The notes under the pieces: generated by a model
Seen by the model: only the letters and a program-made list of their open reading frames with translations
Databases searched by the model: none
Told to the model about the DNA's origin: nothing
Part shown: positions 1-8,600 of the stretch, piece after piece
How the letters are laid out: each line of letters starts with the position of its first letter
Numbering within the stretch: the stretch's first letter is position 1
Made by a program: the position numbers and the translations under genes
DNA from: the human T2T-CHM13v2.0 reference genome, Homo sapiens
Assembly (NCBI RefSeq): GCF_009914755.1
Contig: NC_060937.1
Reading direction: 5' to 3' (one strand)
DNA: 64,000 bases

Positions 1-2698
1 CATCTTTTCATCTTCTGGATAGTAGGAACAGTATCACATGGGTTTGTACACTTTCTGTGATATTGGGAGTAATATCAACATCTCCGCCTTTGACTATGAA
101 GAACAATATCACAGAATGGATGTACACCCACTCAGATATTGGGAGTCATATCAGCCTCTCATCTCCATGGATATTGGGAATAATATCCCAGGGTGGGTGT
201 ACACCTCCTGCTGTATGGGGAGTCATATCGTCCTCCCCCATCCTGGCAATTAGGAACAATATCACAGGGTGGGTGTCCACAGCCTGCGATATTGGGACTC
301 ATATCACCCTCTCCCCCTCCGGATATTAGGAACAATATCACAGAAGGGTTGTATATTTCCTGCGATACTGCGAGTAATAGCATTCTCTTCTTCCGTGAAT
401 ATTAGGAGCAATATCACCGGGTGGATGTACACCCACTGCTATATTGGGAGTAACGTCATACTCCACCCCCTGGATGTTATATTCGGATCAATATAACCGG
501 GTGGGTGTACACCTACTGTGATATTGAAAGTAATATCATGCTCTCTCCTTTCCGTGGACATTAGGAACAGTATCACAGGTGGGTGTACACCCACTGCGGT
601 ATTAGGAGTAATATTAGTATGAATTATTACACCTTGATTATTAACATGAATATGAATTACCAATATTAATATTAAGAAATAATTGCTAATAAAAAGTTTT
701 CAGATTATTAATATTAATATTATTAGGAGCTAATATTACTGTTTTCTAATGAATAAGATCAGTATCAGTTATTAATATCAGGTGTTATTAATAATTAATA
801 TTAATAATTTATTTTTATCATTGGTAGAACTATGTAATAGAAATTATGATTATCGGTATTGATTTAAAAATATCAGTTATTAATATTGATATTATTAATA
901 TCAATCAATAATTGATGTTTTAATATCAATCAATAATTGATGTTATTAATATCAATCAATAATTGATGTTATTAATTGCGATAAGTAATATTGCGACATT
1001 CCTCACAATATCGCAGAAAATGTACACCCCTCTGTGATGTTGTTCCGAATAGTCAGGGGTAGACGATGGCATTACTCCAAATATCGCACTGGGTGTACAT
1101 TCCTTCTGTGATCTTGTTGCTAATATCCAGGCTGGGAGAGGATGGTATTAATCCCAATAATCCAGAAGGTGTAGACCTCCCCTGTGATATTGTCCCTAAT
1201 ATCCAAAGGTGGAGAGGAAGATATATCACCCAATTTCGCAGGGGTTGGACACCACCCCTGTGATATTGTTTCTAATGTCCACGGGTAGAGAAAATGACAT
1301 AACTCACAGTATGGCAGGGGGTGAACACTCCCTCCATGATATTGTTCCTAATACTCGGGGGTAAGAGTATGATATTACTCCCAATATCATAGGGGGTGTA
1401 CTCCCAATATCCCAGGGGGTGTATAGTATCCCGACCGGTGATAGACTCCGCCACGATGCGGGGAGTAATATCACGCCCCTCTCCTTCCCTGGCTATTACG
1501 ATACACATCGCAGGGGGGCGGGCGACGCTCGCGACGCGGGGAGAAATATCAGCCCCTCCTGACATTACAAGCCACATGGCAGGGGATGGACACCCCCAGT
1601 GATGCGGGGAGTAATATCTACCCCCCCTTCCCCATGGATATTAGGAGCCACATCGAAGGCGTGTGGACAGCCCCCGCTGATGCGCAGAGTAATATCAACC
1701 TCCGTCCCTCCCTGCATGTTAGCAGCCACTGTGGACACACAGTGTATTTACGATATTTCCAGTAAGATTATCTTTTCTATTGAACCTTATGAACAAGATC
1801 ACAGGGGGGTGTACACATCCTGCGATATTGGGGGTAATATCATTCTCTCCTCCACAGCATACTGGGAACAATATCACAGGGGCGTGTATTCCCCCTTTCT
1901 TATTGGGAGTCATATCATACTTGCCTTCCATATATTAAGAACAATATCAAAGGGGGGGGTGGACACTTTGACGATATTGGGAGTAACATCATTCTCTCTA
2001 TCCCTGGATATTAGTAGCAATATCACAGGGGGATGTACATTTCTTGTGATATTGAGAGTAGTATTATTGTCTTCCCCACTGGATATTAAAAACAATACCA
2101 CATGGGGTGTCAAACCACCTGCCAAATTTGAGGGAATCTTATCCTCTCCCCTGCACCCCCCGCGCCCCGGATATTACAGACAATAACACAGGGGTAATGT
2201 ACACCCACTGCTTTATTGGGAGAAGCATCATCCTCTCCTCCCTTAGATATTAGGAACAATATCATGGGGAGGGGGTGTACTGCCTCGGCGATATTGGGAG
2301 GAAAATTATCCTCTCTTCCCCTGGATATTAGGAAGGGTATCAGAGGGGGGAGAGTGTACATTCCCTGTGATATTCAATGTAATCTTATCCTCTCCCTCCC
2401 AGGGTATTAAGAAAAATATTACAGGAGGGTGTACACCCCCTGCAATACTGAGAGTCATATCATCCTCTTTCGCTCTGGATATTAGGAACAATATCACAGG
2501 GTTGTGTACTCCCCCTGCGATATTGGGAGTAATATCATTCTCTCTCCCTGTGGATTTTAGGAAGAGTATTACAGGGCTGTGTACACCCCCTGCGCTATTG
2601 GGAGTAATATCATCCTCTCTCCCTCTGGATAGTAGGAAGAGTTTCATAGGGGTGTGTACACCCCCTGTGATATTGGGAGTAATATCATCCTGTCGCCC
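1..2698. repeat. SATR1/SATR2-like satellite, ~75-bp unit, with orientation switches and an AT-rich spacer
   Basis: Unit TGGATATTAGGAACAATATCACAGGG..GTGTACACCCCCTGCGATATTGGGAGTAATATCATCCTCTC recurs with a 75-bp period (TGGAT at 2476, 2551, 2626). Family name recalled; SATR arrays are typical of OR7E-containing segmental duplications. Confidence 0.85.
610..990. repeat. AT-rich low-complexity spacer containing three ~27-bp tandem copies (TTAATATCAATCAATAATTGATGTT)
   Basis: Very AT-rich ATTAATATT-type sequence; tandem units at ~895-975. Confidence 0.8.
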
Positions 2699-3057
2699 TG
2701 AGGAGAGAAGCCATTTCGCTACTGTCTCCTGTCTCTGAAGAGGAGGAGGAAGTAAAAGTTGGAAAACAACAGGAATGAAGTCAGTGTCAAGACCAGCCGG
2801 TGGCAATGAGGAGCCGGCCTGAGGTGAAACAATCAACCCCCGTGACTCTAAGTACATGTGCTCTCAATCCATCAAGACCCTTTCACGTGGAACCCCTTAA
2901 AGCTGTAAGCCCTTAAACGGGCCAGGAACTCTGTCTTCCTTCCGGGAGCTCGGCTCTTAAGACGCGAGTCTGCCGAAGCTCCCAGCGGAATAAAAAAAAC
3001 TCTTCCTTCTTTAATCCGCTGTCTGAGGGGTTTTGTCCGCTGCTCATCCATGCTCCA
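2699..3057 (+). mobile_element. ERV1 5' LTR, HERV-E/Harlequin (LTR2-family-like)
   Basis: TG...CA ends; AATAAA at 2989; R/U5 sequence GAGCTCGGCTCTT...CTTCCTTCTTTAATCCGCTGTCTGAGGGGTTTTGTC resembles LTR2; immediately followed by a tRNA-Glu PBS (TTTCTTTGTTCCCTGACCGGGAA). Confidence 0.8.
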
Positions 3058-3065
3058 TTTCTTTG

Positions 3066-3137
3066 TTCCCTGACCGGGAATCGAACGCAGGCAGCAGCGG
3101 TGAGAGCACCGAATCCTAAGCACTAGACCACCAGGGG
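3066..3137 (-). tRNA. tRNA-Glu(CTC) full-length degenerate copy (probable pseudo-tRNA)
   Basis: Reverse complement CCCCTGGTGGTCTAGTGCTTAGGATTCGGTGCTCTCACCGCTGCTGCCTGCGTTCGATTCCCGGTCAGGGAA, 72 nt; anticodon CTC at 3102-3104. Versus canonical Glu-CTC: D-loop GG to GC, a T-stem mismatch and CpG-type transitions. Confidence 0.9.
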
Positions 3138-3578
3138 AACTTAGAACCTTGTGGGAAATAGATTGCACACCATTAGAAGTGGGTTGGCCATCAGAAGGAA
3201 GCCTGGACAGGTCCCTTGTTTCTAAGGCGTGGCACAAGGTAACTGGTAAAGATACCTAGACCAGTTCCCATACATAGACACTTGGTGACAGCTGGTGCTA
3301 GAACCCCCACAGTGGCTGAGGGCATGCAGCAGCAATACTAGTAGCAAAGGGACAGATAGCTAAGGAAGGATCCCGCTCCACTCACCCAGGGAAATCAACT
3401 CCTGAAGTTCTGTTCGACCCCACATCAGAGGATCCATTGCAGGAGATGGCACCAGAGATCCCAGTGGTGTCCTCCCCTTAACAGGGAAAGAGGCTCCCCA
3501 CTCTTGAGCCCACAGTGCTTGTGCCTCCACAAGACAAGCATATCCCTAGGCCACCCAGAGTAGACAAGAGAGGAGGAC
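3138..3578 (+). mobile_element. HERV-E-like gag (matrix region) fragment, defective
   Basis: Translates LRTLWEIDCTPLEVGWPSEGSLDRSLVSKAWHKVTGK, then after a frameshift DQFPYIDTW*QLVLEPPQWL: gammaretroviral MA motifs. Confidence 0.85.
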
Positions 3579-3720: not shown

Positions 3721-3870
3721 GGCTGGGTGCGGTGGCTCACGCCTGTAATCCCAGCACTTTGGGAGGCTGAGGTGGGCAGATCACCTGAGGTCGGGAGTTC
3801 GAGACCAGCCTGGCCAACATGGACAAACCCCGTCTCTGCTAAAAATACAAAAACTAGCTGGGAGTGGAGG
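3721..3870 (+). mobile_element. AluS left monomer, abruptly 3'-truncated (preceded by a short antisense L1M fragment, ~3590-3720)
   Basis: GGCTGGGTGCGGTGGCTCACGCCTGTAATCCC...AAAAATACAAAAACTAGCTGGG, then unrelated sequence with no poly-A tail. Confidence 0.9.
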
Positions 3871-5611: not shown

Positions 5612-8600
5612 GTAAGTGCGGCCCCCGCTAGGATGGCGCCGGGATCTCCCAGCTCCCAGGACCTGCCCCGCGAAGGCTGCGGCCTCAGTTTTCTTATCAG
5701 TAAACTGAGGAATGGTTTCCTGAAGCTCAACGCAGTAGGCCGAGTGGTGGCGGGGCCCCTGACGATAATCACGGGAAAGGTCGCTGGAGGGCAGGTTGGT
5801 TCACTTGCCGCCCACGGGTGTGTCACCAGGCAGGCGAGTTTAAGCAGCTTGTCCCGACTCAGCCAGACAGGACTCCCTGGACCTGCACCAGGCCTTTCCG
5901 CAGTTTCCCTCCTCTTCTCCTTTCCGTGCCTCTCCCCTCTCAGCTGTAACTTTGCAGATGTGGAACAAGTGCCAGTGGAATGAGGGGGCACAGTGGGGAC
6001 ATGGGAGGGCGCAGAACGGAAATATTCATGAAACCAGGAAAGGTTTCATAAGCCCAAACTGCTGTTCTTGGGATTTATGAAATAACTGCTTGCATTGTCT
6101 TCTGGCCCTTAGCTCTCAGACTTGTTGCTCCATTGCATGCAGTTATGAAAATCTTTGGCACTGCTGAGTTCAAGTATTTTTCAGCCAGGTCCTCCACCAG
6201 GCTGGAGGGGGAGCCAGAGAGCACATGGGCATGAAGGTGGTTCCTGGTGATCTTTCTCACAATGGAGACTACCCCAGGGTCTCTTTGTCCTGAACAACTT
6301 TGTCAACAACAGCAACAACAACAAAAACAACAAAAGAGACAGCTTTTTCCAGGAACTCACATGTCCTGGGAGGATTACAGGTACCTCAAACAGCAAATTA
6401 GGTGCCTTTTTAATATTACATGATTGTTGGTTTCAAATCCAGAATTGCTTATTGTTTTTCAAAGGGCAAAGTCAATTTTAAACTCTTCTGTGTTATTCTT
6501 CAGCCTTTAATCCTTAGATGGGTTACAGGCATGAATGTCACTCCTTTTGCTGCCCTTGACTCAGGACGTGAAAGTAATGGCCTTTCCGTGTGATTCTCTT
6601 ATTTTGAAACCTGGAGCTCTTCCTTGTTCCTGGGCTAAGATTCGGGGCTAGACATGAACATGAGCTGCCCTTCTGCAAAGGGATAAATGCGCTCACCACC
6701 CTGGTCAGGGTTTGACTCAGGAAGCTGAGTTCCAGCTTGTTTCCTTGGCAGCACTGCCAAAGAGTTAGACCAAGCTGCAGCTTTTGAGGTGAAAGGGGAT
6801 GGAAGAAAGTACTGTTACTTTTCCACTTAGAATTTTTGGACTTTGTTCTTAATGAATAGGTTCATTTTCAATTTCAAAGCAAAGTGTTAACATTTTTGAA
6901 ATTTGTCTCAATTCTAAAGGCCAAACTTAAATATGTCTCCTCCTACTGGGGCATGGAGCAAGTTATTCATCAAATACAGATTCTCGCATGGAAAAGAAAG
7001 CTAGGATAGTGTGTCGCTGCTGCTCTGTGGCAAAGAACAGCTCCTTTCTAAGCAACAGCCTCACTCTACTAGAATAGGTCTGAGCGCGCCCATTCATGGC
7101 TGATTGCAACTTCCACTGGGTGGGATTTCAGATCTAGAATCTGTTTTCAGATGCCTTAAAGAGAAGACATAGAAACACATTCTTAACAGTTTCAGGGGAG
7201 ATAGTTGGGATAGTTTGTAGTTTTGCTTAGGTTATATGTGTCTGTTTTCTGCTTTTGTTGTTAACGGACTAACCCTTAGTTTGGTGGTTAGAGAAGTGAT
7301 GGGAAGAACATAAAGAAAGCTCAGATGACATTTGTCTTTGCTTTAAATGTGTAGTTTTTCTCTCACAAGGCTAGTCAGAAATATTGTTGGCAGAAGCTGT
7401 GTGTATCTAAATAGTAATTTCTTAAGGAAGCATAATATGTATATCTTAATTGCTGCCAAGAATTGAGTACAGACATTTGTTATCCTCGTTTGTCTGTTTA
7501 ATGCTTTTCTATGGGAGAGAATGCTTAAGAGAGGTAGATACTACTGAAATTTAGCTCATCAAGAGGGAGACACACCAGGATAAGGATAATAACAGCAGCT
7601 CACTTTTAGCAAACGCTTGTTATGATGATGATGATGATTTATTAGCTGGAATGGGAACCATGTCTTCACGAATAGACTGAAGTCCTTTTGAGCCCAGATC
7701 ACATGCCTGTTTGTCAATGATGGCTGTTTATGAAGGTGTCTCTTTGAGGTGGTGGTCATCTGGCAGGGTCAGTAGAGCTTAGATTGAGCCTTGTCAAGGC
7801 CCTGGGTGATGAGTGGGATTTAGTTTCTCTAGCTGTGAAATTGAAAGGATGCTATTTAATAGTGCTATTAGGGAGAAAATATTTGCTCTGTTGAATACTT
7901 TCAAAATATCATTACAATGTACATGCTGTGCTATACCATATAGATACATTGGAGCCAGTGTCTCGCATGAAAATATTTTGGATGAATATGTAAACCAATG
8001 TTACCTTTGTTTTTTGCTCTAGTTTTTACAGCTCTGTCTGAAGGTGCACCAACCTTACAAGGAAGATCAAACAGCAAGCCTGTTCTTTGAAGAATACTTC
8101 TTTATTATCATTAAAAAAAATTTAGGTTGCTTGCACCCAAAGGCAAAAAATAGCCATTCCTCGTACTGAAAGAAACAAGTTACTCAGATAGGAAAGAAGA
8201 ACAGATATTTAATAAGGAAATATTCCTTCCTGTTCCCACTTTCAGGGAGGCCTCTTAAGACATGAAGAGGACCAAAATAACAATTGCAGTATAACTTCAC
8301 ATGGTGGGGTGGGGGGTGTGGAGTTCAAATGTGGTTGATCAAAATAGTGTTGTTACTTTCCTTTAGACTTGATTCCAACATGTAAAAAAATCAGGCACTT
8401 TAGTGGGAGTGATTTTAACTTCAGTAGTGAAAGGGCAATGCAATTAAGAGTTAGGGTAGTGTTTCTCAAACTTCATCCTCAGAGGTGCTTTAGAAATTGA
8501 CTACCTTTGGTTTGAATTTATTTTTAGAAATATATCTTCTTTTCAGTATTTTTAAAACTGTAAAAGGTAAACCATGTTTTCTCAAATGTGTTAAATGAAA

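What the first reader, a model, noticed from the sequence alone, without database searches (positions are those of the whole stretch)
2699..3578. Retroviral primer-binding site extended into a whole tRNA-Glu that replaces the leader and fuses into gag
Seen: the LTR ends at 3057. TTTCT-TTG follows (TTG is one mismatch from TGG, the complement of CCA). Then comes the complete 72-nt antisense tRNA-Glu(CTC) at 3066-3137 rather than the usual 18-nt PBS, running straight into gag MA codons (CCA GGG GAA CTT AGA ACC = PGELRT). Known: HERV-E primes on tRNA-Glu, and plus-strand copying of the primer normally stops at m1A58. The recalled HERV-E Gag reads ..TPGKLRTLCEIDW.., so CCAGGG would be shared by the tRNA 5'-end complement and gag. 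Inference: RT copied an entire (hypomodified) primer tRNA and switched template at the CCAGGG microhomology, deleting the leader and gag start. Later recombination with a tRNA cDNA is an alternative. This apparent tRNA gene would then be a fossil retroviral primer.
Basis: partly seen in the sequence, partly recalled or inferred. Interest (0 to 1): 0.8.

Follow-up and report, generated by a model that had tools for sequence, protein, structure and literature searches.

The report
Whole primer tRNA fossilised in HERV-E
An ancient defective human endogenous retrovirus kept a DNA copy of the entire tRNA-Glu that primed its reverse transcription, which names the primer of an extinct virus and shows that an over-extended replication intermediate can still reach the germline.

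Summary
A 359-bp LTR (2699-3057) is followed by TTTCT, TTG and a complete antisense tRNA-Glu(CTC) at 3066-3137, which runs straight into gag.

Ordinary HERV-E copies in this genome carry only the 18-nt primer-binding site, then about 610 nt of leader and gag start. Here 48 further tRNA bases replace that stretch.

The join lies on CACCAGGG(A). This is the complement of the tRNA's first 8-9 bases. It occurs once in each of two ordinary elements, exactly at the join.

The best explanation is that plus-strand strong-stop synthesis ran to the 5' end of the primer tRNA, and the second strand transfer then landed on this microhomology.

Nine loci (chr13, chr2 x3, chr3, chr8 x4) carry the structure. 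They share one 5' flank and one 3' truncation, so this was one event spread by segmental duplication.

Three short dispersed retrocopies all lie inside tRNA + CCA + antisense U5 up to the first T-run. One is fused to an L1 3' end. This suggests that the fossil tRNA was transcribed by RNA polymerase III.

I found no printed description, though the library searched lacks most subscription journals. The event is old, and the copies are decayed.

The parts
1787..2698 (.). 75-76-bp tandem-repeat array, the host flank of the provirus
   Evidence: TRF rows. The same flank-to-LTR junction is present in 8 of the 8 duplicon copies that keep the LTR start. The array resumes after the truncated provirus in the longer copies.
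2699..3057 (+). 5' LTR (TG...CA, 359 bp) of a tRNA-Glu-primed class I ERV (HERV-E)
   Evidence: It aligns end to end with the LTRs of ordinary copies, e.g. L010 501-889 and L068 105-463.
2989..2999 (+). AATAAA plus an A-run. On the minus strand this is the first T-run (T8) downstream of the tRNA, a candidate Pol III terminator.
   Evidence: Sequence. The first T>=4 run lies at +55 to +73 in 9 of 9 duplicon copies. The HERV-derived part of retrocopy L013 ends in this run.
3058..3062 (+). TTTCT spacer between the LTR and the primer-binding site
   Evidence: Present in ordinary and variant copies alike.
3063..3080 (+). The ordinary 18-nt primer-binding site. The window reads TTG for the CCA complement.
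   Evidence: 10 of 10 ordinary copies carry TGG plus 15 nt and then switch to leader sequence. 8 of the 9 other fossil copies read TGG.
3066..3137 (-). Complete copy of mature tRNA-Glu(CTC), antisense to the provirus
   Evidence: The window copy matches the germline gene at 65 of 72 positions. The CTC anticodon is kept in 9 of 10 copies.
3081..3128 (+). 48 nt of tRNA-only sequence (tRNA nt 10-57 by plain count) that replaces about 610 nt of leader and gag start
   Evidence: Ordinary copies match the window only up to 3080-3084 and again from 3129, with 603-616 nt between the two matches.
3129..3137 (+). Junction microhomology CACCAGGG plus G, shared by the complement of the tRNA 5' end and gag
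   Evidence: gag site; tRNA position 1 reads C in 10 of 10 copies. In one search the 9-mer occurs once in L067 and once in L068, at the junction site.
3138..3576 (+). gag (matrix region) fragment with stop codons. HERV-E homology ends at 3576 in this copy.
   Evidence: 87-93% identity to ordinary copies; translation. In seven of the eight other copies gag-pro-pol runs on past this point; the eighth (chr2:96.06M) ends within about 7 nt of it.
2993..3142 (-). Inferred Pol III transcription unit: short leader, tRNA, CCA, antisense U5, then the T-run
   Evidence: The three dispersed retrocopies L013, L069 and L070 all lie inside these limits. This part is inferred, not shown.

Best explanation
A HERV-E particle was reverse-transcribed from a tRNA-Glu(CTC) primer.

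During plus-strand strong-stop synthesis the polymerase did not stop after the 18 primer bases that normally become the primer-binding site. It copied the primer to, or one base short of, its 5' end.

The 3' end of that over-long strand could no longer pair at the primer-binding site. It paired instead with the only place in the minus strand that matches it, an 8-9-nt stretch about 610 nt further on in gag, and was extended from there.

The result is LTR, PBS, the whole antisense tRNA, then gag without its leader and about its first 30 codons.

This DNA entered the germline once, inside a 75-bp tandem-repeat array. It lost its 3' part, and segmental duplication of the OR7E-type block then copied it to at least nine loci.

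Shown: the anatomy, the single origin, the uniqueness of the microhomology, and the Glu-CTC identity of the primer.

Inferred: the order of events inside the reverse-transcription complex, the hypomodified state of the primer, and integrase-mediated entry.
For: 1. The tRNA copy continues the primer-binding site in register and in the orientation expected of a plus-strand copy of the primer.

2. It ends at tRNA nt 1/2 with no 5' leader, and the complement of CCA precedes it. CCA is absent after all germline tRNA-Glu genes examined. The template was therefore a mature tRNA.

3. The join sits on the terminal 8-9 nt of the tRNA complement. That 9-mer is present in 14 of 20 ordinary gag copies, with one mismatch in 2 more. 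It occurs once in each of two ordinary elements, at exactly this site.

4. Ordinary copies have the 18-nt site followed by leader in 10 of 10 and 7 of 7 further LTR ends.

5. The nine junction-bearing copies form one group with 100/100 support. They share the same host-to-LTR junction in 8 of 8 and the same 3' truncation point in 6 of 6.

6. Published work on HIV-1 states that without the m1A58 stop, and the backup stop at position 54, plus-strand synthesis runs on into the tRNA. With an unmodified primer it reaches the 5' end (passages of PMC8599865; passages of PMC13191261).
Against: - The base at the very end of the junction is G in 10 of 10 fossil copies, but both the tRNA complement and most ordinary gag copies read A. 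A parental polymorphism, an end-of-template error or an early mutation has to be assumed. 4 of 20 ordinary copies, which lack the 9-mer, do read GGGGAA here.
- No copy keeps a 3' LTR within 10 kb. No target-site duplication can be read, so normal integration is not shown.
- The quoted papers regard over-extended products as dead ends that cannot be integrated.
- If the minus strand had already been completed, the product would be a heteroduplex that needed repair or replication to fix the deleted strand.
Confidence: 0.8

Rival explanations
1. An over-extended plus-strand strong-stop DNA from another HERV-E particle converted a provirus already resident in the chromosome. This would be cDNA-mediated recombination, using the LTR and PBS as the long homology arm and the 9-nt stretch as the short one. 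It would not have arisen during the reverse transcription that produced this provirus.
For: It gives the same end product and needs no integration of an aberrant DNA. It fits the published view that such products are not integrated. The missing 3' LTR leaves the mode of entry open.
Against: It needs a second active particle and a rare recombination in the germline. No copy with this flank carries an ordinary leader: all 9 copies have the tRNA.
Confidence: 0.1
2. A second tRNA-Glu molecule packaged in the particle, not the primer still attached to the minus strand, served as a template after a template switch during plus-strand synthesis.
For: Retroviral particles package many tRNAs (title and abstract listing of PMC4997597).
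Against: The tRNA copy continues the primer-binding site without any break or duplication, as expected if the attached primer was simply read on. The growing minus strand has the same sense as the tRNA and so cannot pair with it (inference from the sequence).
Confidence: 0.05
3. The tRNA arrived after integration, either as an L1-mediated tRNA retropseudogene or by recombination with a chromosomal tRNA-Glu gene.
For: tRNA retropseudogenes and tRNA/L1 chimeras exist in primate genomes (passages of PMC11838501).
Against: There is no target-site duplication, no A-tail and no gene-type flank. Germline genes have their own leaders and close T-runs, and none is followed by CCA. The register with the primer-binding site is exact, and about 610 nt were lost at the same time, at a microhomology made of the tRNA's terminal bases.
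Confidence: 0.03
4. The full tRNA is an ordinary feature of the HERV-E family or of one of its subfamilies.
For: None found.
Against: 0 of 17 ordinary LTR-PBS junctions carry it. All carriers share one flank and form one group.
Confidence: 0.01

Closest known systems
Over-extended plus-strand strong-stop DNA (product 'P1' with unmodified primer; read-through in TRMT6-mutant cells) in HIV-1
   Same: The polymerase copies the primer tRNA past position 58. With an unmodified primer it reaches the 5' end, giving a 3' end that no longer matches the viral DNA (passages of PMC13191261; passages of PMC8599865).
   Different: Those are in vitro or cell-culture intermediates described as non-productive. 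Here the product was completed through a microhomology, fixed in the germline and kept for tens of millions of years. The virus is a gamma-type ERV primed by tRNA-Glu.
Primer over-extension sequence of lentiviruses and spumaviruses
   Same: Viral sequence just after the primer-binding site matches the next few tRNA bases, so slightly over-extended strands can still transfer (passage of PMC13191261). Ordinary HERV-E copies show CGA at +2 to +4 after the 18-nt site, matching tRNA positions 57-55, in 8 of 10.
   Different: That covers a few bases and is part of normal replication. The finding is a 72-nt copy with a deletion.
Sequencing of minus-strand strong-stop DNA with its attached primer to identify the HTLV-1 primer isodecoder
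   Same: Sequence beyond the 18 shared bases names the tRNA gene type used as primer (abstract and passages of PMC11251516). The fossil does the same for HERV-E. It matches the Glu-CTC type, not the Glu-TTC isodecoder (L059) that has the same 3' end.
   Different: That is a laboratory assay on a living virus. This is a natural record of an extinct one.
tRNA/LINE-1 and U6/LINE-1 chimeric insertions
   Same: L013 has a target-site duplication, a TT/AAAA-type target, an L1 3'-end piece with an A-tail, and a small-RNA part at its 5' side. 21 tRNA/L1 chimeras are reported in PMC11838501 (passages). For U6/L1 chimeras I saw only the listing and abstract of PMC4476161 and PMC6789731.
   Different: Reported tRNA parts are mostly half tRNAs in antisense orientation. 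L013 has a whole tRNA in sense orientation with a 73-nt non-tRNA trailer that ends in a T-run.
Retrotranscribed tRNA-Gly next to deleted HIV proviruses in cultured T cells
   Same: A DNA copy of a tRNA lies beside a large proviral deletion (abstract of PMC12220202).
   Different: That tRNA is not the primer, lies at the 3' end and is proposed to be self-primed. Here it is the primer itself, in register with the primer-binding site at the 5' end.
Strong-stop-DNA model for the origin of tRNA-derived SINEs (Ohshima and Okada; recalled)
   Same: The model needs a genomic unit made of tRNA, CCA, then antisense U5/R, transcribed from the tRNA's internal promoter and then retroposed. The fossil has this arrangement, and three retrocopies lie inside it.
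   Different: The model is recalled from memory. I saw only the title of Okada and Ohshima 1993 in a reference list. Here the unit arose inside a provirus by plus-strand read-through, not by insertion of minus-strand strong-stop DNA. It made only 2-3 known copies, not a SINE family.

Membership tests
HERV-E (class I ERV primed by tRNA-Glu) | Primer-binding site complementary to the 3' 18 nt of tRNA-Glu | tested here: met
   Window 3063-3080 against the germline gene. The family definition comes from passages of PMC4379568.
HERV-E (class I ERV primed by tRNA-Glu) | Gamma-type gag-pro-pol | tested here: met
   Pfam Gag_p30, RVP, RVT_1, RNase_H and an integrase zinc finger on ORFs of the related ordinary copy L068. 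The 42-aa window gag piece alone gave no Pfam match.
HERV-E (class I ERV primed by tRNA-Glu) | Match to the named consensus sequences LTR2, LTR2B or LTR2C and HERVE-int | not testable with these tools
   No Dfam or Repbase library is on hand, so the subfamily is not assigned.
Functional nuclear tRNA gene | Cloverleaf with an intact acceptor stem | tested here: not met
   The cloverleaf is still called in the window. However, position 1 reads C against A72, a non-standard first pair marked. 9 of the 10 copies are no longer called by ARAGORN.
Functional nuclear tRNA gene | Own flanks: a 5' leader of genomic origin, no encoded CCA, and a T-run terminator close by | tested here: not met
   CCA (CAA in the window) follows the tRNA, and the first T-run is at +67. 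In two of three germline genes checked it lies at +6 and +7, and in the third at +54.
L1-mediated tRNA retropseudogene (for the window copy) | Target-site duplication and an A-rich tail around the tRNA | tested here: not met
   The tRNA abuts the PBS and gag directly.
Over-extended plus-strand strong-stop product | An unbroken, in-register continuation of the PBS into the rest of the primer, antisense to the tRNA, ending at the tRNA 5' end | tested here: met
Over-extended plus-strand strong-stop product | Primer lacking the modifications that stop the polymerase | not testable with these tools
   The only hint is that A at standard position 58 is unchanged in 9 of 10 copies.
tRNA/LINE-1 chimeric insertion (for L013, not the window) | One target-site duplication around both parts, an endonuclease-type target, and an L1 3' end with an A-tail | tested here: met
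   The direct repeat AAAAAATCTTTT is 12 to 17 nt long and is preceded by TTTTT. The 3' piece matches a dispersed repeat in L067 and at two window sites, and the L067 match ends in an A-run. Naming it L1 rests on recall.

The most novel reading that the evidence does not exclude
The fossil primer became a working RNA polymerase III gene and, in effect, a proto-SINE. Transcription would start a few bases upstream of the tRNA, run through tRNA, CCA and antisense U5, and stop at the T-run that is the complement of the LTR's AATAAA-A-run.

L1 then retroposed this roughly 155-nt RNA at least two or three times.

- L013 (chr2:205.84M) covers the whole unit and is fused to an L1 3' end.
- L070 (chr3:106.88M) covers tRNA nt 15-72, CCA and about 55-60 nt of U5.
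- L069 (chr2:11.58M) covers tRNA nt 8-72, CCA and 30 nt of U5.

L013 shares four Cs at the tRNA start and the T at plain position 45 with the main group of duplicon copies. L070 shares CCAGACCATTTCT with the chr2:96M copy.

If this is right, the human genome holds a natural instance of the arrangement that the strong-stop-DNA model (recalled) proposes for the birth of tRNA-derived SINEs.
Probability: 0.5. Interest if true: 0.75.

Novelty: new variant of a known kind. Interest (0 to 1): 0.65.

Why it matters
**Primer identity.** The fossil is a natural record of the actual primer molecule of a retrovirus that has been extinct for tens of millions of years. It shows that HERV-E used the Glu-CTC type. 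The 18-nt site alone cannot show this, because a Glu-TTC isodecoder has the same 3' end.

**A 'dead-end' intermediate that was not dead.** A reverse-transcription product described in current papers as unable to complete or integrate was in fact completed through an 8-9-nt microhomology and reached the germline. This gives a concrete mechanism for 5' leader and gag deletions next to the primer-binding site.

**tRNA annotation.** It explains a set of low-scoring tRNA-Glu-like hits in the OR7E-type duplications on chromosomes 2, 3, 8 and 13 as copies of one viral event, not as decayed tRNA genes.

**SINE origins.** If the Pol III reading holds, it makes an old model for the origin of tRNA-derived SINEs testable at a defined human locus.

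Tried and rejected
**3' LTR and target-site duplication.** I looked for these to test normal integration. There was no LTR match within 10 kb downstream in 6 of 6 longer copies. Proviral homology stops in the integrase region at L068 position 5616-5617, and the tandem repeat resumes. The test is not possible.

**RT error signature at modified tRNA positions.** Only position 1 differs from the germline gene in all 10 copies. Position 45 (8 of 10) and position 51 (6 of 10) differ in subgroups that follow the copy tree, so they are later mutations.

**More junction-bearing or retrocopy loci.** Two further genome searches added L069 and L070 and nothing else. Only 40 candidates were scored per search, so the counts are lower bounds.

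**L069's origin is not settled.** It shares one variant-type base in U5 that 1 of 17 ordinary LTRs also has. It lacks the tRNA 5' end.

**Literature.** Ten searches found no description of a HERV-E or other ERV with a whole primer tRNA. The library lacks most subscription journals. Older papers that I recall as relevant could not be opened: Olsen and Swanstrom 1985, Lauermann and Boeke 1997, Burnett and McHenry 1997, and Ohshima et al. 1993. No supplementary files were consulted; Supplementary Table 3 of PMC11838501, which lists the tRNA/L1 chimeras, might include L013.

**Not done.** No Dfam alignment, no check in other primates and no test of present-day transcription was possible with the tools on hand.

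Full report
**Observation**

The window holds a 359-bp LTR from TG at 2699 to CA at 3057. It is followed by TTTCT, TTG and a 72-nt antisense tRNA-Glu.
- ARAGORN calls the tRNA with anticodon CTC.
- Rfam's tRNA model scores it at 29.2 bits, just above the gathering score of 29, and marks the first acceptor pair as non-standard.
- The genome's own tRNA-Glu-CTC genes, for example the chr1 cluster, were found by searching with the window copy.
- The window copy is identical to the germline gene at 65 of 72 positions.
- After the tRNA the sequence reads CCA GGG GAA CTT AGA ACC and continues as a gag fragment with stop codons to 3576.

**What ordinary copies look like**

I searched the window's own genome with 2990-3260. 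Of 673 first-look candidates, 40 were scored.
- 9 loci matched the whole query, including the window itself.
- 1 locus (L013) matched only the LTR end plus the tRNA.
- 30 loci matched only the gag part, starting at window 3126-3134 (3129 in most).

Of the 20 gag-only loci that were fetched, 10 had an LTR within the 1.5-kb flank. In each of these the LTR match ends at window 3080-3084 and the gag match restarts at 3129, with 603-616 nt between them.

Printed side by side, 10 of 10 read LTR...CA, TTTCT, TGG plus 15 nt, and then leader sequence. Seven further LTR ends, chosen as the closest to the window's U5, do the same. The family therefore has the usual 18-nt primer-binding site.

In the window, 48 further tRNA bases (3081-3128) stand where ordinary copies have about 607-613 nt. 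The missing stretch holds the whole leader and about the first 30 gag codons. In L068 the reading frame gives ...HGSDKSKPTPQGAMLKNSKEGFSGDYGVTMTPGK... up to the junction. The start codon is inferred, because that copy has lost it.

Pfam finds Gag_p30, protease, reverse transcriptase, RNase H and an integrase zinc finger on the ordinary copy L068. A class I element with a tRNA-Glu site is HERV-E by the naming rule given in PMC4379568 (passages). I could not assign an LTR2 subfamily, because no Dfam library was on hand.

**The junction**

Ordinary gag reads ATGA-CACCAGGGA-AACTTAGAAC at the site.
- The 9-mer is exact in 14 of 20 copies.
- It has one mismatch in 2 of 20.
- It is replaced by a shorter form in 4 of 20.

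CACCAGGGA is the complement of tRNA bases 1-9. In two ordinary elements (L068, 6.7 kb; L067, 4.6 kb) the 9-mer occurs once, at exactly this site. The join therefore used the one place in the virus that matches the 3' end of a full-length copy of the primer.

All 10 fossil copies read G at the last base (tRNA position 1 reads C), where both partners read A. The 4 ordinary copies with the shorter form read GGGGAA there, so the parent may have been polymorphic. An end-of-template error or an early mutation would fit equally well.

**Mechanism**

The plus strand of a provirus carries the complement of the primer. The plus-strand strong-stop DNA normally copies only 18 primer bases, because the polymerase stops before m1A58.

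Published work on HIV-1 says the following:
- Without that stop, and without the backup stop at position 54, synthesis runs on and the product no longer matches the other strand (PMC8599865, passages).
- With an unmodified primer, synthesis reaches the tRNA 5' end, and that product is not an active template (PMC13191261, passages and a figure legend).

Several features of the fossil are what a run-off copy of the attached, mature primer would give:
- its orientation
- its exact register with the primer-binding site
- the CCA complement before it, which no germline gene encodes
- its end at tRNA nt 1/2 with no leader

The 3' end of such a strand can prime only where it pairs, and it paired at the 9-mer.

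Two routes are possible, and the sequence cannot tell them apart. The minus strand may already have been complete, giving a heteroduplex that was later resolved. Or it may still have been growing, so that both strands were finished on each other.

The A at standard position 58 is unchanged in 9 of 10 copies. This fits an unmethylated A58 but does not prove it.

**Single origin and spread**

The nine loci are:
- chr13, the window
- chr2 at 71.06, 96.06 and 159.34 Mb
- chr3 at 128.42 Mb
- chr8 at 6.82, 7.80, 7.83 and 12.98 Mb

Eight of the eight copies that keep the LTR start share the same 40-nt host flank, which is the end of a 75-bp tandem-repeat array. Four ordinary copies have unrelated flanks (array). 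The chr3 copy has lost window 1080-2866.

In six longer copies, proviral homology runs on through gag-pro-pol to L068 position 5616-5617, in the integrase region. There the tandem repeat resumes, in 6 of 6. No LTR lies within 10 kb downstream.

The window copy is cut shorter, at 3576.

The nine copies form one group with 100/100 support against 10 ordinary copies. K2P distances are 0.084-0.171 among the nine and 0.058-0.120 among the ordinary copies.

PMC4379568 uses about 0.3% per million years for HERV-E (passage). At that rate the distances would mean roughly 28-57 million years. This is a rough figure for CpG-rich, duplicated DNA.

The event is thus about as old as the family, and the spread was by duplication of the host block, not by replication.

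**Primer identity**

A Glu-TTC isodecoder (L059) has the same last 18 bases as the Glu-CTC genes, so the primer-binding site cannot tell them apart. The fossil can:
- The anticodon is CTC in 9 of 10 copies.
- The D-loop T at plain position 19 is kept in 10 of 10, where L059 has C.

For a living virus this kind of identification needed sequencing of strong-stop DNA with its primer (PMC11251516, abstract and passages).

**Dispersed retrocopies**

Three short loci carry U5 end, PBS and tRNA bases beyond the 18-nt site.

*L013 (chr2:205.84M).* Read in tRNA sense, it holds 2-5 nt that match the gag side of the variant, the whole tRNA with four Cs at its start, CCA, and 73 nt of antisense LTR ending in a T6 run. 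A 100-nt piece with an A-tail follows directly.
- The whole insert lies inside an Alu.
- A 12-17-nt direct repeat flanks it, preceded by TTTTT.
- The 100-nt piece matches a dispersed repeat in L067 and at two window sites; the L067 match ends in an A-run. I recognise it as the L1 3' end from memory.
- L013 also shares the T at plain position 45 with seven of the nine duplicon copies, so it derives from a variant copy after the first duplications.

*L070 (chr3:106.88M).* It holds tRNA nt 15-72, CCA and about 55-60 nt of U5. It lies next to an A-rich tail and is flanked by AAAAAAGGCCTT repeats after TT. It shares CCAGACCATTTCT with the chr2:96M copy, and 0 of 17 ordinary LTRs have this.

*L069 (chr2:11.58M).* It holds tRNA nt 8-72, CCA and 30 nt of U5 ending in AAAA, between 12-14-nt repeats. 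Its source is less certain.

None of the three reaches beyond the stretch bounded by the tRNA 5' end and the first T-run downstream. That T-run is the complement of the LTR's AATAAA-A-run and lies at +55 to +73 in 9 of 9 duplicon copies.

These are the limits expected of a Pol III transcript driven by the tRNA's internal promoter. tRNA/L1 chimeras are a known class, with 21 loci reported, mostly half tRNAs in antisense orientation (PMC11838501, passages).

I rate the Pol III reading at about even odds. The 5' end of L013 overlaps its target repeat, and no expression data could be consulted.

**Comparison with what is known, and novelty**

Already described in the papers quoted above, or known generally:
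- the read-through intermediate
- microhomology-guided transfers as a general property of reverse transcriptases (my own knowledge)
- tRNA/L1 chimeras

New, as far as ten full-text searches show:
- a germline-fixed provirus that kept its entire primer
- the identification of the HERV-E primer type from it
- its possible second life as a Pol III unit

The searched library lacks most subscription journals, and several older papers could not be opened. An earlier description therefore cannot be excluded.

I file it as a new variant of a known kind.

**Verdict**

- Confidence in the mechanism: about 0.8.
- Interest: 0.65. It is a neat and informative fossil with one testable extension, but it is ancient, defective and has no shown present function.

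Noticed in passing
window 15-2699: Arrays of a 75-76-bp tandem repeat lie in both orientations, with internal hairpins. One hairpin gives a weak mir-36 hit, far below the gathering score. In the longer copies the same repeat lies on both sides of the truncated provirus. I did not identify the repeat family.
   Followed up: partly
L010-L027 (ordinary HERV-E copies), just after the 18-nt primer-binding site: 8 of 10 ordinary copies read CGA at +2 to +4 after the primer-binding site, matching tRNA positions 57-55 after a mismatch at position 58. This resembles the 'primer over-extension sequence' described for lentiviruses and spumaviruses (PMC13191261).
   Followed up: no
L027, G000:C8:10494350-10494590: An ordinary HERV-E copy has a tandem triplication of a 75-nt unit. 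The unit runs from the A-run after AATAAA through U5 and TTTCT to the first 5 bases of the primer-binding site. It may be another aberrant strand-transfer product.
   Followed up: no
L019, L024, L025, L030 (gag near the junction site): 4 of 20 ordinary gag copies carry a shorter form that lacks the 9-mer and reads ...ACTTTGGGGAACTT.... This looks like a separate subfamily.
   Followed up: no
window 3722-3838: A partial Alu left arm matches Rfam Metazoa_SRP at 57.4 bits, below the gathering score of 70. It lies between the truncated gag fragment and the RGCC CpG island.
   Followed up: no
window 3066-3137 relative to 4691: The best-kept fossil tRNA of the nine lies about 1.55 kb upstream of the annotated RGCC transcription start, on the opposite strand. 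Whether it binds TFIIIC or Pol III there is unknown.
   Followed up: no
L033, G000:C6:126968922-126968997: A genuine tRNA-Glu-CTC gene with native flanks and a T-run at +7 happens to have AAGT just upstream. That made it match 5 extra bases of the query. This is a chance resemblance, not a retrocopy.
   Followed up: yes
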